From positions 14,629-78,628 of the forward strand of contig NYZP01000019.1 of NCBI GenBank assembly GCA_002687175.1: DNA of 64,000 nt, read 5' to 3'. The translations under genes were made by a program, and so were the position numbers. Shown in pieces: positions 17,644 through 40,851 of this stretch (positions are counted from its first letter, which is position 1; every line of letters begins with the position of its first letter). The notes below the pieces were generated by a model, which was given only the letters and a program-made list of their open reading frames with translations, searched no databases and was not told the origin of the DNA. This stretch comes from Parcubacteria group bacterium. Lineage in GTDB: Bacteria > Patescibacteriota > Patescibacteriia > Buchananbacterales > UBA6539.

Positions 17644-18672
17644 TTACTTTCTCAGTTTACTGGTAGGTCGTAAAATTGATTTATGAGCTTTAAAATAATC
17701 GATCGCGCCTTTTATCCCCTCTTCGAGCAGTACGACTGGAAACCAACTTAATCTTTCTTTGGCTAAAGTAATATCTGGTAGTCCTAAAGGAGACATAAAA
17801 AGTAAAGGCTTTTGAAAAACTACTTTTGATTTGGAGTCAGTTAGTTTAATAACTTTTTTAGCAACATCAGAAATTTTATAATCTAAATCACTGCCTAAAT
17901 TGACAGGACCTGACTCACCACTTCTCATCATTTTCATAAGTCCTTGTACTATATCGGATACATGACATAAAGAGGTTGAAAAACTATTATCGCCGTAAAT
18001 AGCAAGATCCTTGTTGTCTAAAGCATTAAATACAAAATCAGGAAGCATTCTACCTGTTTTCAGTTTCATTCTAGGACCATAGGTTCTAAATATTCTCACA
18101 ATTTTGGTATTTAGATTATATGATTGCCCGTAAGTATAGGTCATAGTTTCAGCAAACCTTTTTCCTTCATCATAACAAGAACGAGGATTTAAGTGATCCA
18201 TTGCTCCTTGATAATCCTCCTTGAAGTGAGGTTTTTTAATATCGCGTGGACCATAAACTACTGCCGAGGAGGTTAACAAAAATTTAGCTTTATATTTTAC
18301 GGCTAAATCTAAAATATTTCTCACGCCAACGGAATTTGCTAACACTGTTGCAATTTGAGTTTTTTTAAAGTCTTTTGGTGAAGTTGGGCAGGCCAAATGA
18401 TAGATTTCCTGAATACCTTGAAATTTAACTTGAAATTTTTCCAATTCTCTTAGGCTCTCTAAGTCAATTGGTTCATTTACATCATGTTTAATAAATTGAA
18501 AATCAGAATTCTGTAATAGATGATCAATGTTAGCCTCATCACCAGAAACAAAATTATCAATACAAATTACTTTATTTTTTTTAACTAGCTCATCACAAAG
18601 ATAAGAGCCAATAAAACCAGCTCCTCCAGTAACTAATATATTCTTTTTTTCAAAAATTGCTTTTGTTGCCAT
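17644..18672 (-). CDS. UDP-glucuronate decarboxylase (UDP-xylose synthase, UXS)-like SDR
   Basis: ILVTGGAGFIGSYLCDELV Rossmann motif. Strongly UXS-like block YDEGKRFAETMTYTYGQSYNLNTKIVRIFRTYGPRM (UXS: YDEGKRVAE...RIFNTFGPRM). Confidence 0.65.
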   Translation of the reverse strand: MATKAIFEKKNILVTGGAGFIGSYLCDELVKKNKVICIDNFVSGDEANIDHLLQNSDFQFIKHDVNEPIDLESLRELEKFQVKFQGIQEIYHLACPTSPKDFKKTQIATVLANSVGVRNILDLAVKYKAKFLLTSSAVVYGPRDIKKPHFKEDYQGAMDHLNPRSCYDEGKRFAETMTYTYGQSYNLNTKIVRIFRTYGPRMKLKTGRMLPDFVFNALDNKDLAIYGDNSFSTSLCHVSDIVQGLMKMMRSGESGPVNLGSDLDYKISDVAKKVIKLTDSKSKVVFQKPLLFMSPLGLPDITLAKERLSWFPVVLLEEGIKGAIDYFKAHKSILRPTSKLRK

Positions 18673-18707
18673 ATAAATTTATTCTACACATTTAGTATAA
18701 CTAAAAA

Positions 18708-19166
18708 CTATTCTAAAGGCAATTTGGTCATTATTTGATTATTTTTAAAAGTCCAAAACCGGTTAAAGCTAAAATTCCAAACGGTAACTAGGGCCGTTGC
18801 GAAAACCCAGGACAATAACCAATGCAGATTAACAAATTCGGTTAAACTATAAATGATACCAGTGTTAATTGTTAATCCAGAGACCATAACAACGGAAAAT
18901 TTTATTAATTGATTTAATACTTCTCTACCCTTTTCGATATTTCTAAAAGTCCAAAATTTATTAGCCCCGAAATTAAAAATGGCCGAGATCAAAAAAGCCC
19001 AAATGGCTGAATTAATATACCAAAATCCTAACCATTGAGTTGCTGAATAATAAATTAAAAAATTAATGACAGCAGAGGTTCCGCCAACAATACAAAATTT
19101 AACCACCTGTTTAAAAAATGGATACTTACGAATATGTTCAATAATTACTTTGGTTTGATACCTCAT
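18708..19166 (-). CDS. GtrA-family membrane protein (polyprenyl-phosphate sugar translocation/accessory)
   Basis: 152 aa with 4 predicted TM helices. It has the GtrA signature blocks KFCIVGGTSAVINFLIYY and NFGANKFWTFRN / NFSFNRFWTFKN. Confidence 0.7.
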   Translation of the reverse strand: MRYQTKVIIEHIRKYPFFKQVVKFCIVGGTSAVINFLIYYSATQWLGFWYINSAIWAFLISAIFNFGANKFWTFRNIEKGREVLNQLIKFSVVMVSGLTINTGIIYSLTEFVNLHWLLSWVFATALVTVWNFSFNRFWTFKNNQIMTKLPLE

Positions 19167-19172
19167 AAAAAA

Positions 19173-21428
19173 TTAATAGCTAATTACTTCGGGACGAACC
19201 CCACCTTTATAGTTTTGCAGATGAGTAACCAAATCAAATAACATTTTACCATTCAAATCAAAAACTTTAACTTCCGAGCTTCCGCCAACACCCATGCCAG
19301 TAACTATTTCATCAATGCCATCATTATCAATGTCATCAGCTGAAACATACACACCATCTAAAAAATTTGGTTCATAGGCAAAGAAGCTGGATAATTGCTC
19401 TCCTCGATGAGAAAACACCCTAACCGTTGGGACTGAATCTTTTTCAATGCTAGCAATGACTTCCGAACCACCATCACCCAATAAATCACCAACCGCAACG
19501 TTAACACCACCTTTGAAATTTTTATTATAAGCAAAAAATTGCGAGATCAAACTACCATCAAAGTTAAAAATTCTAACATGGGGTCCCCCGCCAGCACCAG
19601 CTCCACTAACAATATCATCAACTCCATCACCATTAACATCACCAGTAGCAACGTTAACACCTCCAGTAAAATTTTCTTGATAAGCCATGAATTCTGAAAA
19701 TAAATTTCCTTTAAAATCAAAAATTCTGACTTGTGGTAAACCGCCCTTACCAATTCCGGTGATAATTTCATCGACACCATCGCCATCAACATCACCTACT
19801 GAAACAGGAATTCCACCTCTAAAGCTTTTATCATAGACAAAAAATTGTGACAACACTTGCCCTTCAATATTAAATATACGAATATGCGGCCCACCGCCAA
19901 GTCCAGCACCAGTAATAATTTCATCTAAGCCATCACCGTTCACGTCACCAACCGCCACATTAATTGGACCTGAAAAAAGTGGATCGTAAGCATAAAATGT
20001 TTTAAACTCAGAACCATCAGTTCTTAATATTTTTATTTGGGGCAATGAGCCAAAACCTAGGCCAGCAACAATATAATTATTCTGACCACCTTTAGACTGT
20101 GGTAACTTGGTTCCTAAAGCAAGTTCCAAGGCCTTACCACCATCAATCAACCCAGAACCAAGTTTAGTTAAATAAGCCGGATTATGTGAAGATATATCTT
20201 TAGCAGTTTCTAATATAAAATCTCTAATTTCGTCGGCACTAAAGCCAGGCCTTAAACCTTTAATAGTCGCTAAAACACCACTAACCATCGGTGCCGACAA
20301 AGAAGTACCAGACCAATACCCGTCGTAATACTTGGTAAAACCACTGACACCTTCTTCGTAAACTTGCGCCGCATAAATATTTTCTCCTGGAGCCACAATA
20401 TCAATACAATCACCATAGTTTGAAAAACTTGATTTAGCTAAATTTGATCCGACTGAAGCTACACCAATGAGTATATTTTCAGAATCATCATAACAAACTG
20501 GATAAGATTTATTAAAATCTAAATTAATGCCATTAGCCTGAGGGTCAGTATTACCAGCAGCGGCAACTACTAGAATATCATTATCAAATGCTTTTCTAAC
20601 AGTAGCCAAGAAAAAATTATTAAAACCTGAACCAACAAAACTCATATTGATAACATCAGCACCATTATCAATCGCATAGTCAATAGCTTGCACGACGGAA
20701 AACACATCACCAGAGCCGTTGCTATCTAATACTCTAAGAGGCATCACTTTACTAAACCAGCTACTACCGGCAATGCCTTTAACGTTATGAACACTGGCCG
20801 CAGCCACCCCAGCAACGATAGTACCATGTTTCACGGCGTCTGCATTGTAACCATCACTAAACGATGGGTTAGGGTCAGCGTCACTATCGATAAAATCCCA
20901 ACCATTAATGTCATCGATATAGCCATTATTATCATTATCAATATTGTCGCCAGCAATCTCACTATTGTTGACCCAAATCTTATCAACTAAATCTGGGTGA
21001 TCTAAGTCAACCCCAGTGTCTAAGATGGCAATAGTCGGCTGGTAAGTTATTGTTTCTTGTTGACGAATTAATAAATCCTGAGACCACATATTTCTGGCAT
21101 TTATTTCCGATAGGTACCACTGTAAGGTATAGTCAGGATCATTTGGAAAGGCTGTTATAGTAAACAAGTAATTTGGTTCAATAAACTCTACCGTGGGATT
21201 ATCTTGATAACTGTTAATAATTTCCAATACGTCTTCTTGGTCTGAAAATTGAAATTTATATATTTCCGGATCATTTTTAAATTTAATTAAAAATTCACCA
21301 GACCTAAACTCCAGAATGTCTTCCTCATTTTCATAGGCAAACACTGGAAAATAAAAAAATAATCCGGAACCGATGGATACCAGAGTCAAAAAAAATATAA
21401 ATAAAAATGTTAGTTTAATCCTTAACAT
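19173..21428 (-). CDS. secreted S8 subtilisin-like serine peptidase fused to C-terminal FG-GAP/VCBS-like repeat beta-propeller
   Basis: Signal peptide. Catalytic triad blocks D (ILDTGVDLDHPDL), H (HGTIVAGVAAA) and S (GTSLSAPMVSGV). These are followed by at least 6 tandem ~50 aa repeats of the type GDVNGDG(L/V)DEIITGAG-GGGP-IRIF. Confidence 0.8.
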   Translation of the reverse strand: MLRIKLTFLFIFFLTLVSIGSGLFFYFPVFAYENEEDILEFRSGEFLIKFKNDPEIYKFQFSDQEDVLEIINSYQDNPTVEFIEPNYLFTITAFPNDPDYTLQWYLSEINARNMWSQDLLIRQQETITYQPTIAILDTGVDLDHPDLVDKIWVNNSEIAGDNIDNDNNGYIDDINGWDFIDSDADPNPSFSDGYNADAVKHGTIVAGVAAASVHNVKGIAGSSWFSKVMPLRVLDSNGSGDVFSVVQAIDYAIDNGADVINMSFVGSGFNNFFLATVRKAFDNDILVVAAAGNTDPQANGINLDFNKSYPVCYDDSENILIGVASVGSNLAKSSFSNYGDCIDIVAPGENIYAAQVYEEGVSGFTKYYDGYWSGTSLSAPMVSGVLATIKGLRPGFSADEIRDFILETAKDISSHNPAYLTKLGSGLIDGGKALELALGTKLPQSKGGQNNYIVAGLGFGSLPQIKILRTDGSEFKTFYAYDPLFSGPINVAVGDVNGDGLDEIITGAGLGGGPHIRIFNIEGQVLSQFFVYDKSFRGGIPVSVGDVDGDGVDEIITGIGKGGLPQVRIFDFKGNLFSEFMAYQENFTGGVNVATGDVNGDGVDDIVSGAGAGGGPHVRIFNFDGSLISQFFAYNKNFKGGVNVAVGDLLGDGGSEVIASIEKDSVPTVRVFSHRGEQLSSFFAYEPNFLDGVYVSADDIDNDGIDEIVTGMGVGGSSEVKVFDLNGKMLFDLVTHLQNYKGGVRPEVISY

Positions 21429-21439
21429 GTAGACAAAAA

Positions 21440-25482: not shown

Positions 25483-25483
25483 A

Positions 25484-26464
25484 ATGACCACCGATGCCAA
25501 ACAAAAAATATTGATTCTTGGTGGAGCTGGATTTATTGGATCAAGAATTGCAAAAAAACTGGTTGACCTTGGACACCAAGTTATTGTCTATGACAAGTTT
25601 TATAATTTTATTGAACCAGAAAAAAGTAAATATGTTTTTTATCTTCAGAAACGTCTAAAAAACTTTTCCCCTGATGTAAAAATTATTTATGGTGATATCA
25701 GAGATGACGTGTCTTTGACAAAGACTTTAAATGAACATCGGCCAGATATTATTATTCACTTAGCCCAAATTCCTCTAGCCAATGTTTCCAATAAAATTTC
25801 GGGGGAAGCTCTAGATATTAATGTTAACGGAACAATTTCTTTAATTAAAGCAATTGGCTCAGTTGATTTTGTTAAACGATTGGTTTACGCCTCTTCAAGT
25901 TTTGTTTATGGTCATTTTCAATACGCTCCGGCTGACGAAAAACACCCGACTAACCCGATTGATGTTTATGGCGGGACAAAACTGGCCTGTGAAAATATAA
26001 TAAAAGGTTTTGGTACTCGTTTTGGAATTGATTATACAATTATCAGACCTTCCGCTGTTTATGGACCAACTGACGTTAACCTAAGAGTCAGCCAAATATT
26101 TGTTGATAATGCTTTTGCTGATAAAGAATTAATTTTAGATGGCGGTGGCCAAACTACCCTAGATTTTACTTACGTTGATGACATAGCCCAGGGTTTTGTT
26201 TTAGCAGCTTTATCAACTGAAGCAAAGAATGAGATATTTAATATCACTCGTGGTGAAGGTAGAAGTTTAAAAAATCTGGTCGATATTTTAAAAACACATT
26301 TTCCAGACTTAAAAACCGAAATTAAACCAGCGGACGAAACAAGACCCAAAAGAGGTGCCCTGGACATTTCCAAGGCAAAAAAAATTCTTGGCTATCAGCC
26401 TAAATATTCTCTTGAAGAGGGAATAAAAGAATATATTGAATACATTAAATCAGTAAAAAAATAA
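25484..26464 (+). CDS. NAD-dependent nucleotide-sugar epimerase/dehydratase (SDR)
   Basis: ILILGGAGFIGSRIAKKL Rossmann motif, a YxxxK-type region (YGGTKLACE), ~326 aa. Confidence 0.75.
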   Translation: MTTDAKQKILILGGAGFIGSRIAKKLVDLGHQVIVYDKFYNFIEPEKSKYVFYLQKRLKNFSPDVKIIYGDIRDDVSLTKTLNEHRPDIIIHLAQIPLANVSNKISGEALDINVNGTISLIKAIGSVDFVKRLVYASSSFVYGHFQYAPADEKHPTNPIDVYGGTKLACENIIKGFGTRFGIDYTIIRPSAVYGPTDVNLRVSQIFVDNAFADKELILDGGGQTTLDFTYVDDIAQGFVLAALSTEAKNEIFNITRGEGRSLKNLVDILKTHFPDLKTEIKPADETRPKRGALDISKAKKILGYQPKYSLEEGIKEYIEYIKSVKK

Positions 26465-26466
26465 AA

Positions 26467-27585: not shown

Positions 27586-27588
27586 ACC

Positions 27589-28503: not shown

Positions 28504-28561
28504 AACAATTAAAGAAATTTACAAGTTAAAAAATTATTAGTAATTAAATATCAATTAATAT

Positions 28562-30016: not shown

Positions 30017-30087
30017 TATATATCCAAAATTAAAAAACCAAAGTATTTATGGTTTTTTAATTTGACCAAAATTGAATTATCATAAAT

Positions 30088-32071: not shown

Positions 32072-32078
32072 AAAATAA

Positions 32079-33791: not shown

Positions 33792-33855
33792 AAATAAATT
33801 TTGAGATTTATCCTACTGTTGTTATTTTAAAATGACAATAAAATAACAATATGTA

Positions 33856-35286: not shown

Positions 35287-35306
35287 ATATGTAAATTTGA
35301 TATTAA

Positions 35307-35984
35307 TTAAAATTTTTTACCAACGATTAATTGGTTACACATTATTTTTCCTAAACCAATACGACTTAAAAAATTTTCATATTGCTTTTCAAATGGAATT
35401 TTAAAAAAAGGAAATAACATAAAGTATTTCGATTTGACTACTTTAAAATTACTATCTCTTAGAATTGCTTCTAATTTTTTTAAAGTAAACTTCTCATTGT
35501 GCTCTTCAGAAGGGGTATACCCAAACATTTCTGACATATTGTCATGCCAGGGATTTGCAACAGTCAAAATAACGATACCATCATCTTTTAAAGCCCTAAA
35601 ACACTCTTTGAGCACTTTATGAGGGTCTTCTAAATGATCAATAGCAGATATTATTATTATAACATGAAATGAGTTATTTGCAAACTCTAAATTTGCGGCA
35701 TCACCAAGCTTTAATTGAATATTTGGATCCTTGTTTGTATCAATTAAATCTTGGCTCATATCAATGCCAATGGCTTGATTAAACTTAAAAATTTTATTAA
35801 GTTTGCTCAACATTAAACCATCAGCTGTCCCAATATCTAAGCAGTTTAAATCAGAATAGTTACTAAAATTCTTTTTAATCACCCTTTTAACTTCATCGGT
35901 GCGACGATTTAAACGATAGATATAATCAATTCTTTTTTGTCTTTGATGATGATAATGTTTTTCTACTACTCCTGGCTCATGCAT
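35307..35984 (-). CDS. class I SAM-dependent methyltransferase
   Basis: Motif I CLDIGTADGLM. 225 aa. Confidence 0.65.
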   Translation of the reverse strand: MHEPGVVEKHYHHQRQKRIDYIYRLNRRTDEVKRVIKKNFSNYSDLNCLDIGTADGLMLSKLNKIFKFNQAIGIDMSQDLIDTNKDPNIQLKLGDAANLEFANNSFHVIIIISAIDHLEDPHKVLKECFRALKDDGIVILTVANPWHDNMSEMFGYTPSEEHNEKFTLKKLEAILRDSNFKVVKSKYFMLFPFFKIPFEKQYENFLSRIGLGKIMCNQLIVGKKF

Positions 35985-35990
35985 AAATTT

Positions 35991-37262
35991 TTATTCTAAT
36001 GATTCAAAATAAAACTTCTCTAACTTTCTGGCCTGTTTTTCTAAAGTAAAAAACTTAGTGACTCTTAACAAACCATTATTACCAAACTCCTGAGCTAAAT
36101 CTTCGTTCTTCAAAAGAGTTAATAATTTTTCAGCGAACCTGTCAATATTTAACGGATTAACAATAAAACCTGTCAAATCATTTATCACTAGCTCTTTCGT
36201 GCCACCGAAACAGGTTCCAACTACAGGTAACCCAGCGGCCATTGCTTCCAAATTAACAGTCGGAAAAGGATCAAGGTATATTGAAGGCACCACAACGATG
36301 TCTGATGCTTGGAAAGCAACAGCAATCTCCTCTCGATCTAACCAGCCTGTAAAAACTAGATTATCTTCAACTCCTAATTTCTTAGCAAACTCAATTAGCT
36401 TAAGTGCAACGTCACCTTTTTTGCCAGCGATCAATAATTTTGTTTGTGGAGCTTGATGAATTAATCTGGCCAATGCTGCTACTATTACTTCAGCGCCTTT
36501 AGCCCCGGAAAGTCGTCCGCCATATAAAATAATTTTATTACCCGCTAACCCATGTTTAATCTTAAATTTTTCCTTCTGATCCTTGTTAACTGTTGAAATA
36601 ATTGAATCAATTCCGTTATGAACCGTTATAATATTTCTAACACCGTTAGTCTCCAAAGCATTTTTTAATTCATCACAGACGCTAAAAATTTGATCGATAT
36701 ATTTTAAGTAATACCTAATAATAATATTACGAAAAGGGTTAAAACGTTTTTTAGAAAACCTTAAAAGATGCCAAACTGAAATTTTATAATTAAATTTTGG
36801 TTTATCAGACAAGTCATTATAATTTACAAACTCTCTAAACTTATCATAATGAACTAACATCATATCATGAACGGTTAAAAAAGTTTTGGCACCGAATTGC
36901 TTAGCCAGCTTGAAACAAGCATAAGATAATCGCCAATGCACATTATGAAAATGAACGATATCTGGTTGAATATCTGATATTAACTGTTTAACTCGCTTAA
37001 CAGTATTTTTATTATACAAACTGTGATAAGCGCGCCAGCGAACATGATGGTTAGTATAAATTTGAAAAATTGTTAAACCTTGATATTCAATTTTCTCTGG
37101 TAAATCAGATTCTTGAACAGTAGTGATTATATAAATCTTGTGTCTCAACTCTTTCATTTTTTTAGCTAAATTGTAAGCAACAATACCAGCCCCAGCCGAA
37201 TGAGGTGGAAAGGAGTCATTAAAATAAATGATTTTTAATTTTTTATTTAGTAGATCTGCCAT
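35991..37262 (-). CDS. GT4 family glycosyltransferase
   Basis: EX7E block PFPTVNLEAMAAGLPVVGTCFGGTKELV. Glycine-rich GGRLSGAKG nucleotide-binding loop. Confidence 0.8.
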   Translation of the reverse strand: MADLLNKKLKIIYFNDSFPPHSAGAGIVAYNLAKKMKELRHKIYIITTVQESDLPEKIEYQGLTIFQIYTNHHVRWRAYHSLYNKNTVKRVKQLISDIQPDIVHFHNVHWRLSYACFKLAKQFGAKTFLTVHDMMLVHYDKFREFVNYNDLSDKPKFNYKISVWHLLRFSKKRFNPFRNIIIRYYLKYIDQIFSVCDELKNALETNGVRNIITVHNGIDSIISTVNKDQKEKFKIKHGLAGNKIILYGGRLSGAKGAEVIVAALARLIHQAPQTKLLIAGKKGDVALKLIEFAKKLGVEDNLVFTGWLDREEIAVAFQASDIVVVPSIYLDPFPTVNLEAMAAGLPVVGTCFGGTKELVINDLTGFIVNPLNIDRFAEKLLTLLKNEDLAQEFGNNGLLRVTKFFTLEKQARKLEKFYFESLE

Positions 37263-39274
37263 AAATAATAGTCTTCATCGGGATCAGAACTGTTCCATTG
37301 TCCTAGAATTTTAAATAATTCGGGATCAGATAAAAGCTTATCCCAAAGAATTTTTTCTCTAGGGTAATAGGTATTATTATTTTTTAAAACGTACTTTATA
37401 TTTTTATCCTTAAACAGTGCCGATAGTTCTTCTACAGTTAGATCATCGTTATATTCTAAATCCGTTAGCAGATTAAAGCCAAAAGTGGTTATCCGGGCAA
37501 CATTATAGTCACCGTGCCAAGCTAAGTACTGAGTCTGGCGAGTCAGAATATAAAAATCATCCTTATTATTTGGATGAAGTTGATCCAAAATTTTTCTTGC
37601 TTCAACACCACCGTAATAAACGTGTTGTACTGGAAAATGGAAACCACCATGTCGAGGGTAATAGACAAACGACATTCCCCAGGAGTTTAAAAACAAAATG
37701 ATTATAATAAAAGCCATCAACCATGCAGCTTTTACCTTTTTTAGCATCGGAACTAATAAAACAAAAAATAAGAAAATTAAAATTGGGATCCAAACATTAA
37801 CCCAACTTTTATTAGCGACAAATCTTATTTTAAGAAAATATAGACTATAGGTAAAAAGTAATACTAATTTATAACGATCAGTATTTTTCCATATTGCCAC
37901 CGCCATAAATGGCAACAAAATAATTAATACTGTCAAAGCATTATTGGCTACCAAGTCAACAAAAAATTTAAGTGGTTCTAAAATTGTCTCAAATTTTGAG
38001 ATAAAAACACTTGATGAATCAACAACGGCTGTTGTTAAAATACCGAATATCGCTAAAAGCTGCAAACCAAGTAAGAACCACTTAGACTTAAGCTGTTGGA
38101 GATATAAAATACCATAAACCAACCAAAGGCCAAAAAAGGCATAATGCCAACGATCAATTGAAACCGAAGAAAAGAAAATTGTTAAAGTGGCAACAAAATA
38201 GATTATATTGAAAGAAAGATACTCCCATTTTTTATTTTTTATAAACCCCAAAAAACTTAAAATAATAATCGGGTATATAAAAAACATCTGTCTAAATGAA
38301 TAGATAACTCGATGTAAAGGCTGCAGTAATCTATCATCAAGAATAGTAAAAAGCCTTGAAGCATCAAAAATTTCATAATACTTACCCTTGAATATATCAT
38401 TAAATAGTGGAAAAACTGGATTCTCGTAAATTAAATAATTTCGGATGAACCAAAGTATTACTGGAGTACCTAAAAGTAAAGCATAAATGATAAATCTTTT
38501 TTTGTTTTTTGACTTCCAAAACATGTAGAGCAACAATAAACCCCACAACAGTCCTACCATCTTAGATAAAATAAGTAGGACAAAACTTAATATAACGATA
38601 AGTAAATCAAAGTTTGACTTTTGAATTTGATATTTCTCCCAAAAGTATAAAAAACAAGTAGCCGAAAAAATAATTAATGTTTCCTGCATTATATTCCAAC
38701 CACCCCAAAACCAAACCATTTCATTTGTCAAAAATAAAAGAACTAGAAATGCTAAGTTAGTCTTATTGATACCCTTCTCTTCCCCCCACTTGTAAATCAA
38801 ATACAATGTCAATGAGCCGAAAATAAATGGAATCCACATCAATGTTAACTCATTAAATGTGTTAAGAAGTAAAAAGGTGCTGGCTGACAGAATTGGTAAT
38901 AATGGCATACGGGCAAAATGATACAACTCTGTACCATAAGCAAAATCAACAAAGCCATTATTTTCAACAACTAGCCTAGCGTAAGGTAACCAATAGCCAG
39001 TAACATCACCGGAGAAAAAACCACGAAGCATCATTACTCCTAAGATACTTGCGGGAAATAAAACTAGAAAAATTAGCACCTTTTTATCAAAAACTATTTT
39101 TTTTCGAAATACGAATAGCAATAATAAAATGAAAAATAAAGAGAGTGAAACCGTAAAAAAATTAAGGATCCCTGCTAACCCAAAAATTAAATTTAATAAA
39201 AAGAAACTATAAACTAAAATTAGAAATGATTGAATGGTATCTAGGTTAGGTAATTTTTTAATAAAATTTTGCAT
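37247..39274 (-). CDS. large polytopic membrane protein, putative GT-C-type glycosyltransferase
   Basis: 675 aa. The N-terminal ~540 aa are highly hydrophobic and the C-terminal ~130 aa are a soluble domain rich in W/Y. Confidence 0.4.
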   Translation of the reverse strand: MQNFIKKLPNLDTIQSFLILVYSFFLLNLIFGLAGILNFFTVSLSLFFILLLLFVFRKKIVFDKKVLIFLVLFPASILGVMMLRGFFSGDVTGYWLPYARLVVENNGFVDFAYGTELYHFARMPLLPILSASTFLLLNTFNELTLMWIPFIFGSLTLYLIYKWGEEKGINKTNLAFLVLLFLTNEMVWFWGGWNIMQETLIIFSATCFLYFWEKYQIQKSNFDLLIVILSFVLLILSKMVGLLWGLLLLYMFWKSKNKKRFIIYALLLGTPVILWFIRNYLIYENPVFPLFNDIFKGKYYEIFDASRLFTILDDRLLQPLHRVIYSFRQMFFIYPIIILSFLGFIKNKKWEYLSFNIIYFVATLTIFFSSVSIDRWHYAFFGLWLVYGILYLQQLKSKWFLLGLQLLAIFGILTTAVVDSSSVFISKFETILEPLKFFVDLVANNALTVLIILLPFMAVAIWKNTDRYKLVLLFTYSLYFLKIRFVANKSWVNVWIPILIFLFFVLLVPMLKKVKAAWLMAFIIIILFLNSWGMSFVYYPRHGGFHFPVQHVYYGGVEARKILDQLHPNNKDDFYILTRQTQYLAWHGDYNVARITTFGFNLLTDLEYNDDLTVEELSALFKDKNIKYVLKNNNTYYPREKILWDKLLSDPELFKILGQWNSSDPDEDYYLWQIY

Positions 39275-39277
39275 AGG

Positions 39278-40057
39278 TTATCTAAAACTTTTGCCTAAAG
39301 ATCTAAATTTTTTAATTTCTTCTTTACCAGGATCGCTAAAATTTGTGCCATCAATTGGATCATTAGCTTTCGGCTCTACCTGATTTTGCTTAATTAGATT
39401 AACTGCTTTAATTAATAAATCTCCTCCTAAAGGAACCGTTTTTTTATAAAGGCTATCAACGGTCTCATTAGAAGAAATTGAAACCTCTTGTTGATTAATA
39501 ATTTTTCCGGAATCTATTTTATCATCAATATAATGAACAGTCACTCCAGTCTTAGTCTCTTGATTCAACAGCAGCCAAAAAGCAATATTTTTTCCTCGGT
39601 ACCTTGGTAACATAGAACCATGAACATTGATATTACCATGCTTTGCTTGTGATAACAAAGGTATTTTTAAAATCACCGGACAAGCGATTGATATAACTAT
39701 GTCAATTTCTAAATCTTTTAATTTATTCACAAACTGTTGATCATTAACGTTTGCCGGATAATGAATAGGTATTTTATTATCTTTAAAAATCTTAGCCACT
39801 GAATAATATTTTCTGATAGGAAAAATGTAACTAATTTTATTTAACAACTTGGCTTTCATAAAATCAAACACCTGAATAACAAAACTTCGTAAACCATATA
39901 ATTCAAAAAGTCCGGACATGACCTGAAAACTGGACTTCCTTGTATACCTTGGTAAAATTGCCACTCCCACAATTTCGGTTGCCAATGATCTTACTACTTT
40001 CTCTATTGATAAAGGTAAGTAGAATGGTTCATCTTGGGTGATTATAAAAATTTTCAT
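39278..40057 (-). CDS. formyltransferase-domain protein (ArnA N-domain/Fmt-like sugar N-formyltransferase)
   Basis: HGSMLPRYRGKNIAFWLLLN...GVTVHYIDDKIDSGKII carries the formyl_trans_N signature (SLLP-x-xRG, H...D). Confidence 0.65.
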   Translation of the reverse strand: MKIFIITQDEPFYLPLSIEKVVRSLATEIVGVAILPRYTRKSSFQVMSGLFELYGLRSFVIQVFDFMKAKLLNKISYIFPIRKYYSVAKIFKDNKIPIHYPANVNDQQFVNKLKDLEIDIVISIACPVILKIPLLSQAKHGNINVHGSMLPRYRGKNIAFWLLLNQETKTGVTVHYIDDKIDSGKIINQQEVSISSNETVDSLYKKTVPLGGDLLIKAVNLIKQNQVEPKANDPIDGTNFSDPGKEEIKKFRSLGKSFR

Positions 40058-40851
40058 CTCAATTTTGTTTGGTAATCGTTAGCTAATTCAGAAATGGCAG
40101 CTGACTTGTAACCCTGAGCCAAAATATATTTAATAAATTTCTCTAAAATTTTTAATCCTTTGCCCTGATTCCTAATATAAAAAATTCTTTGCAAAAGTGG
40201 TAATTTTTGTTTACCAGCGATTTTACTTAAATTATGGAGATGAAAATCAAATATTAAAACGTGTGGCAAACCAAGAAGCTTTAAAATAATTTTGTAAACA
40301 TGCCAACCTAAAAATTGAATGTAACTCTGAGAAATTGGAAACCTAAGCTTTGGAGTAACGGCAAAAGGAAACTCTAAAATTCCATTTGTCTGTTTAAAAG
40401 GTACCATTGGTGAACTGGCGTTATTAAACACTCCTGGTCGATAAAATGGGAATAAGCTAAAATTATTTTTAAAACCAAATTCTTTCAGGACATCAAGATC
40501 TTGGTCAGTAAAATATCCTTGAGGAAAACGATAATGCTCTGGCGGACTGTTGAAATAATTAATAAAAGCCTGCTGAGACTTTTGAACTTCTTCTCGAGTC
40601 TCTGCCAGGCTATTTTTTTTACCAGATATATGATAATAAGAATGCACTCCAAAATCACATCCAAATTTTTGCAATTTACTGATAACTTCAGGATATTCAT
40701 CAATTAAATGCCCAGAAAGAAATACCGAAAGTTTAATATTATATTTTTTAAAAAGATTCAGTAAAGGATCTATGTTTTCTGCTGCCGTAAAAGTGTCTAA
40801 CCAACCATAATCTTTTTCTAAATCTAAGGTGAAACAAACTAATTTTTCCAT
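40054..40851 (-). CDS. NodB-type polysaccharide deacetylase/deformylase (ArnD-like)
   Basis: FTLDLEKDYG (Asp motif) and HSYYH (His motif) of the carbohydrate esterase 4 fold. It overlaps the formyltransferase gene by 4 bp. Confidence 0.6.
   Translation of the reverse strand: MEKLVCFTLDLEKDYGWLDTFTAAENIDPLLNLFKKYNIKLSVFLSGHLIDEYPEVISKLQKFGCDFGVHSYYHISGKKNSLAETREEVQKSQQAFINYFNSPPEHYRFPQGYFTDQDLDVLKEFGFKNNFSLFPFYRPGVFNNASSPMVPFKQTNGILEFPFAVTPKLRFPISQSYIQFLGWHVYKIILKLLGLPHVLIFDFHLHNLSKIAGKQKLPLLQRIFYIRNQGKGLKILEKFIKYILAQGYKSAAISELANDYQTKLR

What the first reader, a model, noticed from the sequence alone, without database searches (positions are those of the whole stretch)
17644..40851. Dispersed Arn-like pathway: Und-P-linked 4-amino-pentose/aminosugar route with separate decarboxylase and formyltransferase
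The window contains a UXS-like UDP-glucuronate decarboxylase (17644-18672) and two DegT aminotransferases, one directly followed by an ArnC/GtrB-like GT2 (26467-28503). It also contains a stand-alone formyltransferase overlapping a NodB-type deformylase/deacetylase (39278-40851), which resembles the ArnA-N/ArnD pair. There is also a GtrA-family protein (18708) and an ArnT/PMT-like GT-C transferase (3193-4764). Together these recapitulate arnB, arnC, arnA, arnD, arnT and arnE/F, but with ArnA split into separate decarboxylase and formyltransferase genes. This implies that an N-formylated then deformylated amino sugar (Ara4N-like) is carried on a polyprenyl phosphate and transferred outside the membrane, possibly to a protein or wall polymer rather than to lipid A.
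Basis: inference. Interest (0 to 1): 0.6.

Follow-up and report, generated by a model that had tools for sequence, protein, structure and literature searches.

The report
Separate glycan modules, not one Arn pathway

Summary
All the listed genes exist at the stated coordinates, in a roughly 63-kb glycan region of a Parcubacteria genome assembled from a metagenome. They do not form one dispersed Arn pathway.

1. The UXS-like enzyme, GtrA and the PMT_2 transferase (3193-4764) belong to a core locus conserved across Patescibacteria. That locus has its own PpgS-like lipid-sugar synthase plus DUF2304, and in three relatives it has no aminotransferase, formyltransferase or NodB within 10 kb.

2. The UXS-like enzyme has lost the UXS/ArnA signature Glu and Arg (E120V, R277T). 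All 120 closest homologs lack the Arg and 117 carry the same Glu-to-Val change.

3. The NodB-formyltransferase pair is a conserved two-gene unit, adjacent in 70 of 86 loci from many phyla. It travels with GT4/GT2 glycosyltransferases, almost never with a DegT aminotransferase (1 of about 83 loci), and no UXS-type decarboxylase lies next to it.

4. No gene reaches an Arn equivalog score. No ArnD, ArnT or ArnE/F model matches at all.

My best model is that lipid-linked HexNAc is deacetylated, N-formylated, flipped and transferred outside. This is inference. In a relative, a carbamoyltransferase takes the formyltransferase's place.

The parts
17644..18672 (-). UXS-derived SDR. It keeps the S/Y/K triad but has V at hUXS1 E120, T at R277 and R at N176. 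It is the presumed supplier of the nucleotide-sugar donor for the neighbouring PpgS-like GT2.
   Evidence: hUXS1 239 bits. Residue-level alignments. Among the 120 closest homologs, 117 have V at E120 and all 120 have S/T at R277 and R at N176. Syntenic in L090, L092 and L136-L138.
16960..17631 (-). PpgS-like soluble GT2 (223 aa, no TM helix): candidate polyprenyl-phosphate monosaccharide synthase of the core module.
   Evidence: NCBIfam PpgS NF058614 scores 231.8 bits over the full length, below the cut-off of 370. No TM helix. Always next to the UXS-like gene and DUF2304 in relatives.
16631..16993 (-). DUF2304 small membrane protein. By analogy with Rv3632 it would partner the PpgS-like GT2.
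   Evidence: Pfam PF10066, 76.9 bits. Three to four TM helices. Role of Rv3632 with PpgS: PMC9671496.
18708..19166 (-). GtrA-family 4-TM protein: candidate flippase for the lipid-linked monosaccharide.
   Evidence: Pfam PF04138, 90.9 bits. Conserved upstream of the UXS-like gene in L090, L092 and L136-L138.
15592..16644 (-). GT2 (350 aa, 1 TM helix), last gene of the conserved GtrA - UXS-like - GT2 - DUF2304 - GT2 run.
   Evidence: Pfam. Orthologs at E of 1e-125 to 1e-162 in L136-L138.
3193..4764 (-). PMT_2-type GT-C (523 aa): candidate extracytoplasmic transferase of the core module.
   Evidence: Pfam PMT_2, 41.5 bits. About 11 TM helices. Orthologs at the same relative position in L137 and L138. 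No ArnT model hit.
4828..6924 (+). 698-aa polytopic membrane protein with no Pfam hit, a conserved divergent neighbour of the PMT_2 gene.
   Evidence: No Pfam family. At least 15 hydrophobic segments. Orthologs in L137 (1e-250) and L138 (1e-122).
748..2439 (-). AftA_N-type GT-C (563 aa), a second candidate lipid-sugar-dependent transferase.
   Evidence: Pfam PF12250, 58.7 bits. Polytopic.
19173..23938 (-). S8 peptidase with FG-GAP repeats (19173-21428) and a Wzy_C + TPR protein of 832 aa (21440-23938). They open the conserved core operon. The Wzy_C protein is a candidate ligase, polymerase or O-oligosaccharyltransferase.
   Evidence: Pfam. Syntenic in L090, L092 and L136-L138.
24088..25482 (+). 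Polyprenyl glycosylphosphotransferase (PGT), divergent from the core operon and conserved with it.
   Evidence: Pfam Bac_transf, 227.6 bits. NCBIfam TIGR03025 scores 395.5 bits, above the cut-off of 295.55. Syntenic in L090 and L136-L138.
25484..28503 (+). GalE-like SDR (25484-26464), DegT aminotransferase (26467-27585) and DPMS/AglJ-like GT2 with two C-terminal TM helices (27589-28503).
   Evidence: Pfam. NCBIfam: PseC 323.7 bits and ArnB 304.3 bits (cut-off 631) for the DegT; AglJ 107.8 bits and ArnC 54.5 bits (cut-off 529) for the GT2. PDB: DPMS 68.9 bits against ArnC 47.1 bits. The SDR's nearest solved relative is a UDP-hexose 4-epimerase, 4zrm. This operon is absent beside the PGT in L136-L138.
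42599..43468 (-). DPMS/GtrB-like GT2 (289 aa, 2-3 C-terminal TM helices): the lipid-sugar synthase that travels with the NodB-formyltransferase pair in the closest relatives.
   Evidence: Pfam. TM helices. NCBIfam AglJ 101 bits, PpgS 79 bits. An ortholog (2e-84) lies just upstream of NodB-formyltransferase, separated by one small ORF, in L139, and a homolog (2e-59) lies directly downstream in L140.
40054..40851 (-). Cytoplasmic CE4/NodB-family deacetylase (265 aa), translationally coupled to the formyltransferase.
   Evidence: Pfam Polysacc_deac_1, 71.7 bits. Motifs TLDLE, HSYYH and RFPQG read in the sequence. No signal peptide or TM helix. Adjacent to the formyltransferase in 70 of 86 loci. 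Its closest homolog is in L142 (8e-81), next to a carbamoyltransferase.
39278..40057 (-). Stand-alone formyltransferase (259 aa) of an uncurated family. The Asn-His-Asp catalytic triad is intact, there is no Fmt/ArnA C-terminal subdomain, and a family-specific 33-residue helix is inserted.
   Evidence: Pfam Formyl_trans_N, 90.7 bits. N144, H146 and D182 are invariant in A1. ArnA-N 78.7 bits and Fmt 80 bits. AF2 model pLDDT 93; fold hits to Fmt and ArnA-N both near 1e-17. 84 database homologs and 91 genome loci.
37247..39274 (-). GT-C-fold membrane glycosyltransferase (675 aa) starting 3 nt after the formyltransferase stop. It belongs to a rare family; the nearest solved fold is ArnT.
   Evidence: Weak PMT_2 hit of 20.5 bits. 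Seven proteins, the query's own entry included, in the 5.8-billion-sequence database. AF2 pLDDT 81.6, pTM 0.86. Foldseek best hit is ArnT 5ezm (E 3e-5, TM 0.47/0.56), followed by other GT-C enzymes. D90 is invariant in the first loop. Orthologs lie beside NodB in L142 and beside a weak NodB-like gene in L143.
31091..37262 (-). Tightly packed downstream genes of the same unit: GT4 (35991-37262), SAM methyltransferase (35307-35984), B12-radical SAM (33856-35286), 570-aa 8-TM protein with no Pfam hit (32079-33791) and LPG_synthase_TM (31091-32071).
   Evidence: Pfam. TM helices. LPG_synthase_TM and a methyltransferase also accompany the GT-C675 ortholog in L143.
53624..55303 (.). Second DegT (53624-54724, minus strand) and a cupin RmlC/FdtA-like gene (54812-55303, plus strand). 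Together they give a classical NDP-amino-6-deoxyhexose route, which is the alternative source of an amine for the formyltransferase.
   Evidence: Pfam. NCBIfam PseC 228 bits, dTDP-4-amino-4,6-dideoxygalactose transaminase 209 bits, ArnB 183 bits.

Best explanation
The window is an envelope-glycan super-locus of a Parcubacteria (Patescibacteria) genome.

Module A (748-25482) is a core locus conserved across Patescibacteria.
- A PGT starts a lipid-linked glycan, and GT4/GT2 enzymes extend it.
- A classical three-component side-branch system decorates the product outside the membrane.
- In that system a UXS-derived SDR makes a special UDP-sugar, and a PpgS-like GT2 with its DUF2304 partner loads it onto polyprenyl phosphate.
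- GtrA flips it, and a PMT_2-type GT-C (possibly also the AftA_N-type and the 698-aa proteins) transfers it to a wall polymer or protein.

Module B (25484-31077) is a strain-specific SDR - DegT - DPMS-like GT2 operon with radical SAM enzymes.

Module C (31091-63968) is a variable Wzx-type cluster. It contains the unit: DPMS-like GT2 (42599-43468), B12-rSAM, NodB, formyltransferase, ArnT-fold GT-C.

Proposed mechanism for that unit (inferred, not shown):
1. The GT2 makes polyprenyl-P-HexNAc from UDP-HexNAc.
2. The cytoplasmic NodB enzyme removes the N-acetyl group.
3. The coupled formyltransferase re-acylates the free amine with formyl from N10-formyl-tetrahydrofolate.
4. The lipid-linked N-formyl-hexosamine is flipped and transferred by the GT-C to a surface acceptor.

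This is the 'GT2 + deacetylase + GT-C' logic of the Francisella FlmF2/NaxD/FlmK, Bordetella LgmA/C/B and mycobacterial PpgS/Rv3779 aminosugar systems, with an added N-formyl cap. The deacetylate-then-reacylate step parallels NodB/NodA.
For: Shown by tool results:
- Source organism: NCBI names for identical proteins.
- Module A synteny: PGT | Wzy_C-TPR, S8, GtrA, UXS-like, GT2-223, DUF2304, GT2-348, GT4, VanZ, GT4, 698-aa protein, PMT_2. Seen in L136, L137 (Buchananbacteria) and L138 at E of 1e-80 to 1e-300, and in part in L087-L092. L136-L138 have no DegT, formyltransferase or NodB within 10 kb.
- PpgS-like score of 232 bits over the full length.
- A literature precedent for the same gene set (SDR epimerase Rv3634c + PpgS + Rv3632 + GT-C Rv3779): PMC9671496, PMC5389812.
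- The NodB-formyltransferase pair is adjacent and co-directional in 70 of 86 loci from Planctomycetota, Chloroflexota, Cyanobacteria, Binatia, Bacteroidota, Aureabacteria and Patescibacteria.
- The 4-nt stop/start overlap occurs in the window and in L002, L003 and L005.
- The formyltransferase triad N144/H146/D182 is invariant.
- NodB metal and catalytic motifs are present and it has no signal peptide.
- Among the pair's immediate neighbours, Pfam finds GT4 about 30, GT2 18, hexapeptide acyltransferase 5, SDR 4 and PGT 3 of 103 proteins. The next ring gives SDR 13, GT4 11 and AsnB-type 7 of 86. Neither ring has a DegT or a PMT-type protein.
- A DegT lies within 10 kb in 1 of about 83 non-window loci, and in none of L002, L140, L142 or L143.
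- In the window's own formyltransferase subclade the pair sits with DPMS-like GT2 and GT-C genes. L139: GT2_289 ortholog, 87-aa ORF, NodB, formyltransferase. L140: GT2, PMT_2, PMT_2, NodB, formyltransferase, GT2_289-like. L002: YfhO ... GT2, NodB, formyltransferase, GT2 ... DUF2304.
- GT-C675 has a GT-C fold with ArnT as nearest solved structure.
- In L142 the closest NodB homolog and a GT-C675 ortholog flank a carbamoyltransferase exactly where the formyltransferase sits. A different small-acyl transferase in the same slot fits 'expose an amine, then cap it'.

Inferred:
- the identity of the sugars;
- the order NodB then formyltransferase;
- a lipid-linked substrate for both enzymes;
- the acceptor.
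Against: - No enzyme assay or glycan structure exists for any of these proteins.
- Known formyltransferases of this fold act on soluble substrates (NDP-sugars, tRNA, GAR). Action on a lipid-linked amine has no precedent.
- NodU/CmcH-type carbamoyltransferases are, to my knowledge, O-carbamoyltransferases. The slot swap in L142 may therefore be a coincidence.
- The window itself contains two DegT genes and a cupin isomerase, so an NDP-aminosugar substrate is available 12-13 kb away.
- In most phyla the pair sits among Leloir GT4 and PGT genes rather than GT2/GT-C genes. The lipid carrier form (P versus PP) is therefore not uniform.
- In L003 the pair stands among non-glycan genes.
- For module A, the donor sugar is unknown because the UXS-like enzyme has lost its signature residues.
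- It is not known whether this organism makes N10-formyl-tetrahydrofolate.
Confidence: 0.5

Rival explanations
1. Local Arn-type logic with different parts. An NDP-aminosugar made by a DegT route (53624-54724 with the cupin 54812-55303, or 26467-27585) is N-formylated by the formyltransferase. The DPMS-like GT2 (42599-43468) then transfers it to polyprenyl phosphate. NodB deformylates it as ArnD does, and the ArnT-fold GT-C transfers it, leaving a free cationic amine on the surface.
For: - A GT2 with C-terminal TM helices, NodB, a formyltransferase and an ArnT-like GT-C lie in one tightly packed minus-strand run.
- ArnA is the best NCBIfam hit of the formyltransferase, at 120 bits.
- ArnD is also a CE4 enzyme acting at the cytoplasmic membrane face (own knowledge).
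- DegT genes exist in the window.
Against: - The pair and the quartet recur without any DegT within 10 kb (L002, L140, L142, L143, and 82 of about 83 other loci).
- No ArnD model hit appears even at E<=10.
- A transient protecting group does not explain a carbamoyltransferase in the same slot in L142.
- Known aminosugar systems of this architecture (Lgm, Flm/NaxD, PpgS) reach a free amine by deacetylation alone, without a formyltransferase (own knowledge; PMC9671496).
Confidence: 0.2
2. The formyltransferase is an ordinary NDP-aminosugar N-formyltransferase. It makes an N-formyl deoxy-aminosugar (for example a 3- or 4-formamido-6-deoxyhexose) that a Leloir GT4/GT2 builds into the Wzx-exported repeat unit. 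NodB independently deacetylates another residue, and the neighbouring GT-C is unrelated.
For: - A DegT, a cupin RmlC/FdtA-like gene, a C-methyltransferase and RmlD-like and SDR genes lie upstream on the same strand, apart from the plus-strand cupin gene.
- The fold also matches the sugar formyltransferases WbkC, FdtF, QdtF and WlaRD at E of about 1e-13 to 1e-14.
- In most phyla the pair is embedded among GT4 and PGT genes.
Against: - This does not explain why NodB is the conserved, translationally coupled partner in 70 of 86 loci while DegT is almost never nearby.
- The characterised sugar formyltransferases are more distant than Fmt or ArnA-N.
- No nucleotidyltransferase gene was found among the window ORFs scanned.
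Confidence: 0.13
3. UXS-like (17644) acts as ArnA-C, DegT (26467) as ArnB, formyltransferase (39278) as ArnA-N, GT2 (27589) as ArnC, NodB (40054) as ArnD, GtrA as ArnE/F and GT-C (3193) as ArnT. Together they form one dispersed pathway to a lipid-linked 4-amino-pentose.
For: - All seven superfamilies are present.
- The hUXS1 R277Q mutant stalls at UDP-4-keto-pentose and releases NADH (PMC3438964). A natural UXS relative without this Arg could in principle deliver the ArnB substrate.
Against: - The genes lie in at least three transcription units on both strands.
- UXS-like, GtrA and PMT_2 are conserved as a block with their own PpgS-like GT2 in genomes that have no DegT, formyltransferase or NodB nearby.
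- E120V also applies, and the E120A and R277Q mutants lose 100- to 1000-fold in kcat.
- All Arn equivalog cut-offs are missed (ArnB 304/631, ArnC 54.5/529, ArnA 120 and 48.7/777), and ArnD, ArnT and ArnE/F give no hit.
- There is no Ugd in the window.
- The formyltransferase-NodB pair has its own adjacent GT2 and GT-C.
Confidence: 0.05

Closest known systems
Arn (PmrHFIJKLM) pathway of E. coli/Salmonella: ArnA, ArnB, ArnC, ArnD, ArnT, ArnE/F
   Same: - A formyltransferase with the Asn-His-Asp triad.
- A CE4 deacylase with no signal peptide, presumably cytoplasmic.
- A GT2 with C-terminal TM helices that would load polyprenyl phosphate.
- A GT-C whose nearest solved fold is ArnT.
- These four genes lie in one co-directional run (42599-37247), interrupted by a B12-radical SAM gene and a small ORF.
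   Different: - There is no adjacent aminotransferase or 4-oxidase/decarboxylase.
- The formyltransferase is not fused to an SDR and lacks the C-terminal subdomain.
- NodB is not ArnD-like by profile.
- No EamA/SMR-type ArnE/F is present.
- The host phylum is not known to make lipid A.
- All NCBIfam Arn equivalog cut-offs are missed.
- Gene order is NodB before the formyltransferase.
- The pair is conserved by itself in many phyla.
Aminosugar decoration systems built from GT2 + deacetylase + GT-C: mycobacterial/corynebacterial PpgS-Rv3632-Rv3779 with epimerase Rv3634c (PMC9671496); Francisella FlmF2/NaxD/FlmK and Bordetella LgmA/LgmC/LgmB (own knowledge)
   Same: - Module A has the same gene set as the actinobacterial GalN system: an SDR, a PpgS-like GT2, DUF2304 and a GT-C, plus a GtrA flippase.
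- Module C has the GT2 + deacetylase + GT-C logic.
   Different: - The SDR here derives from UXS rather than GalE.
- The PpgS model cut-off is not reached (232 of 370 bits).
- Module C adds a formyltransferase, which none of these systems has.
- NaxD belongs to the YdjC family, not CE4.
- The acceptors here are unknown.
Three-component extracytoplasmic glycosylation: GtrA/GtrB/GtrV of Shigella/Salmonella phages; CsbB/GtcA/YfhO of Bacillus/Listeria teichoic acids (own knowledge)
   Same: A DPMS-like GT2, a GtrA-family flippase and a GT-C-fold transferase. A YfhO gene accompanies the pair in the Aureabacteria locus L002.
   Different: The sugar is modified on the carrier (NodB and formyltransferase), and several GT2 and GT-C paralogs occur in one region.
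Nod-factor tailoring: NodB (deacetylase) then NodA (N-acyltransferase), and NodU (carbamoyltransferase) (own knowledge)
   Same: - A cytoplasmic CE4 enzyme exposes an amine that a partner transferase re-acylates.
- A NodU-family carbamoyltransferase occupies the formyltransferase's slot in L142.
   Different: - The acyl group here would be formyl from folate, not a fatty acyl group.
- The substrate is probably lipid-linked rather than a free chito-oligosaccharide.
- The window NodB scores only 26 bits against the NodB equivalog (cut-off 240).
UDP-xylose synthase (hUXS1, bacterial Uxs) and the ArnA C-terminal decarboxylase
   Same: Overall sequence (239 bits to hUXS1), the YDEGKR motif and the Rossmann fold.
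   Different: Glu120, Arg277 and Asn176 are replaced by Val, Thr/Ser and Arg throughout a Patescibacteria clade, and the DDP motif is lost. The product is therefore uncertain.

Membership tests
ArnA C-terminal domain / UXS (UDP-GlcA 4-oxidase-decarboxylase) | Extended-SDR fold with a Thr/Ser-Tyr-Lys triad | tested here: met
   S at T118; Y and K in the YDEGKR motif.
ArnA C-terminal domain / UXS (UDP-GlcA 4-oxidase-decarboxylase) | Signature Glu (hUXS1 E120 / ArnA E434) and Arg (R277 / R619), which distinguish the UXS group (PMC3438964; PMC12820599 Table 3) | tested here: not met
   E120->V and R277->T in the window. Among 120 homologs: V in 117, S/T in all 120, and N176->R in all 120.
ArnA C-terminal domain / UXS (UDP-GlcA 4-oxidase-decarboxylase) | Reaches a curated family score | tested here: not met
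   ArnA NF005998 48.7 of 777 bits. Bifunctional UDP-4-keto-pentose/UDP-xylose synthase NF008872 48.0 of 294 bits.
ArnA C-terminal domain / UXS (UDP-GlcA 4-oxidase-decarboxylase) | Decarboxylates UDP-GlcA | not testable with these tools
   Requires an enzyme assay. A relocated Arg at the N176 position might compensate.
ArnA N-terminal formyltransferase | Asn-His-Asp catalytic triad of the folate-dependent formyltransferase fold | tested here: met
   N144, H146 and D182 invariant in A1. Aligned to the ArnA 'NLHGSLLPKYRG' region.
ArnA N-terminal formyltransferase | C-terminal subdomain (Formyl_trans_C-like), and fusion to or adjacency with the decarboxylase and ArnB | tested here: not met
   Only Formyl_trans_N is found and the protein ends at residue 259. 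A DegT lies near the gene in 1 of about 83 relatives. The one apparent formyltransferase-SDR fusion (P0005) reads as a truncated formyltransferase run into the start of the next gene.
ArnA N-terminal formyltransferase | Closer to ArnA-N than to Fmt or other formyltransferases | tested here: inconclusive
   PDB sequence search: Fmt 80.0 bits against ArnA 78.7 bits. Fold search: Fmt 3e-18 against ArnA-N 5e-17. NCBIfam: ArnA 120 bits, PRK06988 107 bits, fmt 96 bits.
Methionyl-tRNA formyltransferase (Fmt) | C-terminal OB-fold tRNA-binding domain (PF02911), about 310 aa in total, reaching the TIGR00460 cut-off | tested here: not met
   No PF02911 hit and a length of 259 aa. fmt 96.1 of 201.5 bits.
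ArnB | DegT/DnrJ/EryC1 PLP aminotransferase fold | tested here: met
   PF01041 397.5 bits for 26467-27585 and 357.6 bits for 53624-54724.
ArnB | ArnB equivalog score, and ArnB as the best-matching family | tested here: not met
   ArnB 304.3 and 182.8 bits against a cut-off of 631. PseC scores higher (323.7 and 228.2 bits). The best PDB hit is a scyllo-inositol transaminase at 244 bits.
ArnC | GT2 catalytic domain plus C-terminal TM helices (polyprenyl-phosphate glycosyltransferase architecture) | tested here: met
   27589-28503 and 42599-43468.
ArnC | ArnC equivalog score | tested here: not met
   54.5 of 529 bits for 27589-28503. AglJ (107.8 bits) and DPMS (PDB 68.9 bits against ArnC 47.1 bits) match better. 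42599-43468 gives no ArnC hit at 1e-10.
ArnD | CE4/NodB fold with no signal peptide or TM helix (so presumably cytoplasmic), and metal-binding His-His | tested here: met
   PF01522 71.7 bits. HSYYH motif. No signal peptide or TM helix.
ArnD | Matches an ArnD-specific family model | tested here: not met
   No ArnD-named family at E<=10. The best matches are PdaB at 67 bits and the XrtA-system deacetylase at 52 bits. That NCBIfam holds an ArnD model was not verified and rests on my recollection.
ArnT | GT-C fold with an acidic residue in the first extracytoplasmic loop | tested here: met
   GT-C675: the best Foldseek hit is ArnT 5ezm (E 3e-5), and D90 is invariant. 3193-4764: PMT_2 at 41.5 bits.
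ArnT | Sequence-level membership in an ArnT family; lipid A as acceptor | tested here: not met
   No NCBIfam hit for GT-C675 and none named ArnT for 3193-4764. No PDB sequence hit. TM-score to ArnT is only 0.47/0.56 at 15% identity. The absence of lipid A in Patescibacteria is own knowledge.
ArnE/ArnF | Small EamA/SMR-type 4-TM heterodimer | tested here: not met
   18708-19166 belongs to the GtrA_DPMS_TM family (PF04138), a different family with an analogous proposed role. No Arn-named hit.
Ugd (supplier of UDP-GlcA) | A UDP-glucose 6-dehydrogenase gene is present | tested here: not met
   None of the ORFs of 100 aa or more that were scanned hits UDPG_MGDP_dh; one 100-aa ORF at 60446-60748 was not scanned.
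PpgS / Rv3632-type polyprenyl-P-HexNAc synthase system | Soluble GT2 of about 225 aa matching the PpgS model over its full length, with an adjacent DUF2304 partner, an SDR and a GT-C | tested here: inconclusive
   231.8 bits covering profile positions 3-222 of 226, below the cut-off of 370. DUF2304 and the SDR are adjacent and a PMT_2 GT-C lies in the same conserved locus. The donor sugar is untested.
XrtA/PEP-CTERM-type polysaccharide deacetylase (TIGR03006) | Reaches the family cut-off and carries the DUF3473 C-terminal domain | tested here: not met
   51.8 of 276.2 bits. DUF3473 is present in some formyltransferase-associated NodB relatives (L005; 2 members) but was not detected in the window protein.

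The most novel reading that the evidence does not exclude
The NodB-formyltransferase pair is a widespread, uncharacterised 'N-acyl editing' cassette. It converts N-acetyl to N-formyl on lipid-linked hexosamines at the cytoplasmic membrane face. The second gene is exchangeable, as with the carbamoyltransferase in L142. In Patescibacteria and their neighbours it feeds an ArnT-fold GT-C. Separately, the Patescibacteria-wide UXS-derived SDR without Glu/Arg would make a new donor sugar, or release UDP-4-keto-pentose, for a PpgS-type lipid-sugar synthase in a core envelope locus of this reduced-genome group.
Probability: 0.35. Interest if true: 0.65.

Novelty: new variant of a known kind. Interest (0 to 1): 0.45.

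Why it matters
Patescibacteria (CPR) have tiny genomes and an almost unknown envelope chemistry, yet this genome devotes more than 60 kb to surface glycans.

- The work identifies a core locus conserved across the group: PGT, Wzy_C-TPR, S8 peptidase, GtrA, UXS-derived SDR, PpgS-like GT2, DUF2304, GT4s and a PMT_2 GT-C. This gives a concrete target for studying how these episymbionts build or decorate their surface.
- The NodB-formyltransferase pair occurs in at least 80 species across many phyla and has no curated family or assigned function. If it swaps acetyl for formyl on lipid-linked hexosamines, it would explain how 2-formamido sugars arise without an aminotransferase. It would also extend the known Lgm/Flm/PpgS aminosugar logic.
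- As a caution for annotation, the 'UDP-glucuronate decarboxylase' label carried by this clade in public databases is doubtful.

Tried and rejected
- PDB sequence searches gave nothing for GT-C675, alone or as a profile, and nothing meaningful for the PMT_2 protein. The fold had to be obtained from an AF2 model.
- A literature search for a formyltransferase plus polysaccharide deacetylase pair found nothing relevant. A search for 2-formamido sugars found only a mention of GalNFmA in the P. aeruginosa O6 antigen, with no biosynthetic genes.
- P0005 looked like an ArnA-style formyltransferase-SDR fusion. The alignment shows a truncated formyltransferase running into the start of an SDR (MTTLKNKSILVTGGAGFIGS) on a 1.36-kb contig. 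I treated it as adjacency or an assembly or gene-call artefact, not as a fusion.
- The SDRs next to the pair in Planctomycetota were tested for UXS/ArnA signatures. By motif they look like Gmd, Fcl and GME-type GDP-sugar enzymes, not decarboxylases. Only L032 has a canonical UXS.
- The small ORFs between the B12-rSAM gene and NodB (window 40936-41154; L139 1674-1937) are soluble and unrelated to each other. They are not a hidden ArnE/F.
- No tRNA genes were found in the window.
- The fold search of the formyltransferase did not separate Fmt from ArnA-N.
- Naive ORF calling in the high-GC loci produced spurious opposite-strand ORFs. Only same-strand neighbours were counted.

Full report
SOURCE AND LAYOUT

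Proteins identical to those of the window are named by NCBI as coming from a 'Parcubacteria group bacterium' genome assembled from a Tara metagenome (locus tags CMI53_03300 and CMI53_03305). They lie on contigs of up to 91.5 kb. The window has about 33% G+C and no tRNA genes.

Pfam scans of all ORFs of 100 aa or more, apart from one 100-aa ORF that overlaps another on the opposite strand, show that almost the whole window encodes glycan biosynthesis:
- 12 GT4, 5 GT2 and 7 SDR-type genes;
- 2 DegT aminotransferases;
- a PGT and a Wzx flippase;
- a Wzy_C-TPR protein;
- 4-5 polytopic GT-C-like proteins;
- 5 B12-binding radical SAM and 2 SPASM radical SAM enzymes, plus methyltransferases;
- one formyltransferase and one NodB-type deacetylase.

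In such a region, finding one member of each superfamily used by the Arn pathway is expected by composition alone.

CHECK OF THE OBSERVATION

- The SDR at 17644-18672 matches human UXS1 far better than any other solved protein (239 bits against 99).
- DegT 26467-27585 is followed by GT2 27589-28503, which has two C-terminal TM helices.
- The second DegT is at 53624-54724.
- Formyl_trans_N 39278-40057 and Polysacc_deac_1 40054-40851 overlap by ATGA.
- GtrA is at 18708-19166, and a PMT_2 GT-C is at 3193-4764.

- a PpgS-like GT2 (16960-17631; NCBIfam PpgS 232 bits over the full length, cut-off 370) with a DUF2304 partner (16631-16993), directly beside the UXS-like gene;
- a second DPMS-like GT2 with C-terminal TM helices (42599-43468);
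- a 675-aa polytopic protein starting 3 nt after the formyltransferase stop (37247-39274);
- further GT-C candidates (748-2439, AftA_N type; 4828-6924, no Pfam hit).

THE UXS-LIKE ENZYME IS NOT AN ORTHODOX DECARBOXYLASE

In the residue-level alignment to hUXS1, STSEVYG reads TSSAVVYG and GSQTRAFQYVSD reads DNSFSTSLCHVSD. That is T118->S, S119->A, E120->V and R277->T. YDEGKR (Y147, K151) is kept.

This is not a sequencing error.
- The orthologs in syntenic metagenome contigs show the same changes.
- Among the 120 closest database homologs (60-100% identity, all from Patescibacteria where a source names them), 117 have V at E120.
- All 120 have S or T at R277, and all 120 have R at N176.

Eixelsberger et al. 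list Ser119, Glu120 and Arg277 as the features that distinguish the UXS group.
- E120A loses about 100-fold in kcat.
- R277Q loses about 1000-fold, stalls at UDP-4-keto-pentose and releases NADH (PMC3438964).
- ArnA carries the equivalent residues E434 and R619 (PMC12820599).

This clade is therefore a UXS derivative of uncertain product. It may still make UDP-xylose through the new Arg at the N176 position. It may release the 4-keto-pentose. Or it may have become an epimerase-like enzyme, since SSxVVYG is an epimerase-type motif (own knowledge). Only an assay can decide.

THE UXS-LIKE GENE, GTRA AND THE PMT_2 GT-C BELONG TO A CONSERVED CORE LOCUS

A metagenome scan anchored on the PpgS-like GT2 found the run Wzy_C-TPR, S8, GtrA, UXS-like, GT2-223, DUF2304, GT2-350 in related contigs (L090, L092; partial in L087-L091).

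Three long contigs carrying UXS-like orthologs were examined: L136 (922 kb), L137 (Buchananbacteria GCA_013359225.1) and L138. They show the gene order:

PGT (divergent) | Wzy_C-TPR, S8/FG-GAP, GtrA, (HD), UXS-like, GT2-223, DUF2304, GT2-348, (CutA), GT4, VanZ, GT4, 698-aa membrane protein (opposite strand), PMT_2 GT-C, small protein.

L137 and L138 carry the full order; the L136 stretch ends at the second GT4. This order is window 748-25482 read backwards, with phmmer E-values of 1e-80 to 1e-300. None of these three loci has a DegT, a formyltransferase or a NodB gene within 10 kb.

This gene set parallels the actinobacterial galactosamine system:
- an SDR epimerase (Rv3634c);
- PpgS (Rv3631) assisted by Rv3632;
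- a GT-C (Rv3779);
- flipping and deacetylation 'by as yet unidentified factors' (PMC9671496, PMC5389812).

A more distant relative (L096) has a canonical UXS (STSE, QTR) beside GtrA and a PpgS-like GT2. The ancestral donor may therefore have been a pentose.

My reading is that module A is a self-contained three-component glycosylation system inside a core envelope-glycan locus. It has no functional tie to the formyltransferase or NodB.

THE FORMYLTRANSFERASE AND NODB ARE A CONSERVED PAIR

The formyltransferase belongs to a family of proteins about 260 aa long.
- It has an N-terminal QEEPFYLP motif and an invariant Asn-His-Asp triad (N144, H146, D182).
- It has a conserved C-terminal ATYFSFPT..FR motif and no Formyl_trans_C domain.
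- Its AF2 model (pLDDT 93) shows the formyltransferase fold with an inserted 33-residue helix.
- Fmt and ArnA-N tie as nearest relatives in sequence (80.0 and 78.7 bits) and in fold (3e-18 and 5e-17). Characterised sugar formyltransferases follow at about 1e-13 to 1e-14.

A motif scan of one genome per species returned 91 loci, of which 80 were kept. Most are Phycisphaerales and other Planctomycetota. Others are Chloroflexota, Cyanobacteria (including the cultured Mastigocoleus testarum BC008), Binatia, Bacteroidota and more.

With a profile built from neighbouring NodB genes, a NodB homolog is adjacent and co-directional in 70 of 86 loci, on either side, and within 10 kb in 5 more. The ATGA overlap recurs in L002, L003 and L005.

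Pfam scans of same-strand neighbours gave these counts.
- Immediate neighbours (103 proteins): GT4 about 30, GT2 18, hexapeptide acyltransferases 5, SDR 4, PGT 3.
- The next ring (86 proteins): SDR 13, GT4 11, AsnB-type amidotransferases 7.
- Neither ring contains a DegT or a PMT-type protein.

phmmer with both window DegTs finds a DegT within 10 kb in only one non-window locus, L009. The SDRs beside the pair in Planctomycetota look, by motif, like Gmd, Fcl and GME-type GDP-sugar enzymes rather than decarboxylases.

The conserved partner of this formyltransferase is therefore a deacetylase, not an aminotransferase. That is the opposite of what is seen for ArnA and for the known NDP-sugar N-formyltransferases.

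A LOCAL ARN-SHAPED QUARTET

In the formyltransferase subclade closest to the window, the pair sits with DPMS-like GT2 and GT-C genes.
- L139 (49% identity): GT2_289 ortholog (2e-84), 87-aa ORF, NodB, formyltransferase.
- L140 (41%): PTPS_related, B12-rSAM, GT2-239, PMT_2, PMT_2, NodB, formyltransferase, GT2_289-like (2e-59), SPASM rSAM, methyltransferase, GT4.
- L002 (Aureabacteria): YfhO ... GT2-327, NodB, formyltransferase, GT2-238 ... DUF2304, with six B12-rSAM genes.

The window protein at 37247-39274 belongs to a rare family, with seven database proteins counting the query's own entry. Its AF2 model (pLDDT 81.6, pTM 0.86) matches only GT-C enzymes. ArnT of C. metallidurans ranks first (E 3e-5, TM 0.47/0.56), followed by DPY19, STT3/PglB, ALG9, Emb and Pmt. 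An Asp in the first loop (D90) is invariant.

Two of its orthologs could be seen in their genomic context.
- L142 (Patescibacteria GCA_042571625.1) reads: methyltransferase, NodB, carbamoyltransferase, GT-C675 ortholog, SDR, GT4 ... B12-rSAM. This NodB is the closest homolog of the window NodB (8e-81). The carbamoyltransferase matches Carbam_trans_N and Carbam_trans_C (180 and 235 bits). A different small-acyl transferase therefore sits exactly where the formyltransferase sits in the window.
- L143 reads: GT2_304-like, GT4, methyltransferase, weak NodB-like gene, LPG_synthase_TM, methyltransferase, GT-C675 ortholog.

Neither locus has a DegT.

MECHANISM (INFERENCE)

The NodB protein has the CE4 motifs (TLDLE, HSYYH, RFPQG). 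It has no signal peptide, so it is cytoplasmic, as the folate-dependent formyltransferase must be.

The most economical model that fits the comparative data has four steps:
1. The DPMS-like GT2 makes polyprenyl-P-HexNAc.
2. NodB removes the acetyl group.
3. The formyltransferase formylates the amine.
4. After flipping, the ArnT-fold GT-C transfers the N-formyl-hexosamine to an extracytoplasmic acceptor.

In Planctomycetota and Chloroflexota, where the pair sits among GT4 and PGT genes, the same chemistry would act on a polyprenyl-PP-linked repeat unit. Caulobacter HfsH is a precedent for a cytoplasmic CE4 enzyme in a Wzx/Wzy pathway (own knowledge).

The deacetylate-then-reacylate logic is that of NodB/NodA. 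The GT2 + deacetylase + GT-C logic is that of Lgm, Flm/NaxD and PpgS. 2-Formamido sugars do occur in nature, for example GalNFmA in the P. aeruginosa O6 antigen (PMC4773840).

The main rival is true Arn logic: formylate an NDP-aminosugar, transfer it to the lipid, then deformylate. It remains possible in this window because two DegT genes and a cupin isomerase are present. It does not explain the absence of DegT in nearly all related loci, nor the carbamoyltransferase swap.

COMPARISON WITH ARN BY MEMBERSHIP

NCBIfam equivalog scores:

| Model | Window protein | Score (bits) | Cut-off (bits) |
|---|---|---|---|
| ArnB | DegT 26467-27585 | 304 | 631 |
| ArnB | DegT 53624-54724 | 183 | 631 |
| ArnC | GT2 27589-28503 | 54.5 | 529 |
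| ArnA | formyltransferase | 120 | 777 |
| ArnA | UXS-like SDR | 48.7 | 777 |

- For both DegTs, the PseC model scores higher than ArnB.
- For the GT2, AglJ and DPMS match better than ArnC.
- No ArnD, ArnT, ArnE or ArnF model appears even at E<=10.
- GtrA belongs to a different family from ArnE/F.
- No Ugd gene is in the window.

The system resembles Arn in architecture (GT2, CE4, formyltransferase, GT-C).

VERDICT

- Novelty: a new variant of known lipid-linked aminosugar decoration systems. The region also yields two uncharacterised but well-defined families (the NodB-formyltransferase pair and the UXS-derived SDR clade) and a conserved Patescibacteria core glycan locus.
- Interest: moderate (0.45).

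Noticed in passing
window 28562-30016(+), 33856-35286(-), 41157-42593(-), 45209-46774(-), 50441-51814(-); SPASM genes at 30088-31077(+) and 43465-44433(-): Five B12-binding radical SAM genes and two SPASM radical SAM genes are interleaved with glycosyltransferases. The same enrichment occurs in glycan loci of Aureabacteria (L002, six B12-rSAM genes), L140 and L142. This suggests radical (C-)methylation or other radical tailoring of sugars. I know of no described role for these enzymes in such loci.
   Followed up: no
window 17644-18672; P0085-P0204: A Patescibacteria-wide clade of UXS-like SDRs has hUXS1 E120->V, R277->S/T, N176->R and a lost DDP motif. Public databases annotate it as UDP-glucuronate decarboxylase or GDP-mannose 4,6-dehydratase.
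   Followed up: yes
window 748-25482; L136, L137, L138, L090, L092: A core envelope-glycan locus is conserved across Patescibacteria. It includes an 832-aa Wzy_C + TPR protein and an S8 peptidase with FG-GAP repeats at the head of the operon. The Wzy_C protein could be a PglL-like O-oligosaccharyltransferase or a ligase.
   Followed up: partly
L142:1449-3170 (Patescibacteria GCA_042571625.1): A NodU/CmcH-type carbamoyltransferase lies between the closest homolog of the window NodB and a GT-C675 ortholog, exactly where the formyltransferase sits in the window.
   Followed up: partly
L003:9165-10777: Here the NodB-formyltransferase pair stands alone among Kelch, HEAT-repeat and GGDEF genes, with no glycosyltransferase within 10 kb.
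   Followed up: no
window 4828-6924(+) and 32079-33791(-): Two large polytopic membrane proteins (698 aa and 570 aa) have no Pfam hit. The first is conserved next to the PMT_2 GT-C in L137 and L138.
   Followed up: partly
window 55311-56027(-): This RmlD-like ORF of 238 aa matches only the N-terminal half of the RmlD profile (positions 1-148 of 285). Its C-terminus is either divergent or truncated.
   Followed up: no
window 54812-55303(+): A cupin gene of the dTDP-sugar isomerase/3,5-epimerase type lies on the plus strand inside an otherwise minus-strand gene run, next to DegT 53624-54724 and a sugar C-methyltransferase (56669-57841).
   Followed up: partly
window 39278-40057, residues 43-75: A family-specific 33-residue helix, rich in aromatic and hydrophobic residues (G55, F59 and K70 conserved), is inserted in the formyltransferase N-domain. 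It could be a membrane-binding or partner-binding element.
   Followed up: no
window 13385-15162(+) and 15294-15605(+): A peroxiredoxin (AhpC), a cyclopropane-fatty-acyl-phospholipid-synthase-like methyltransferase and CutA1 are inserted within the core glycan locus. L136 carries a different set of redox genes (desulfoferrodoxin, hemerythrin, cupredoxin) at the same position.
   Followed up: no
L024-L085 (Phycisphaerales loci): In Phycisphaerales the pair is usually preceded by an SDR and a GT4 (SDR, GT4, formyltransferase, NodB). By motif the nearby SDRs look like Gmd, Fcl and GME-type GDP-sugar enzymes.
   Followed up: partly
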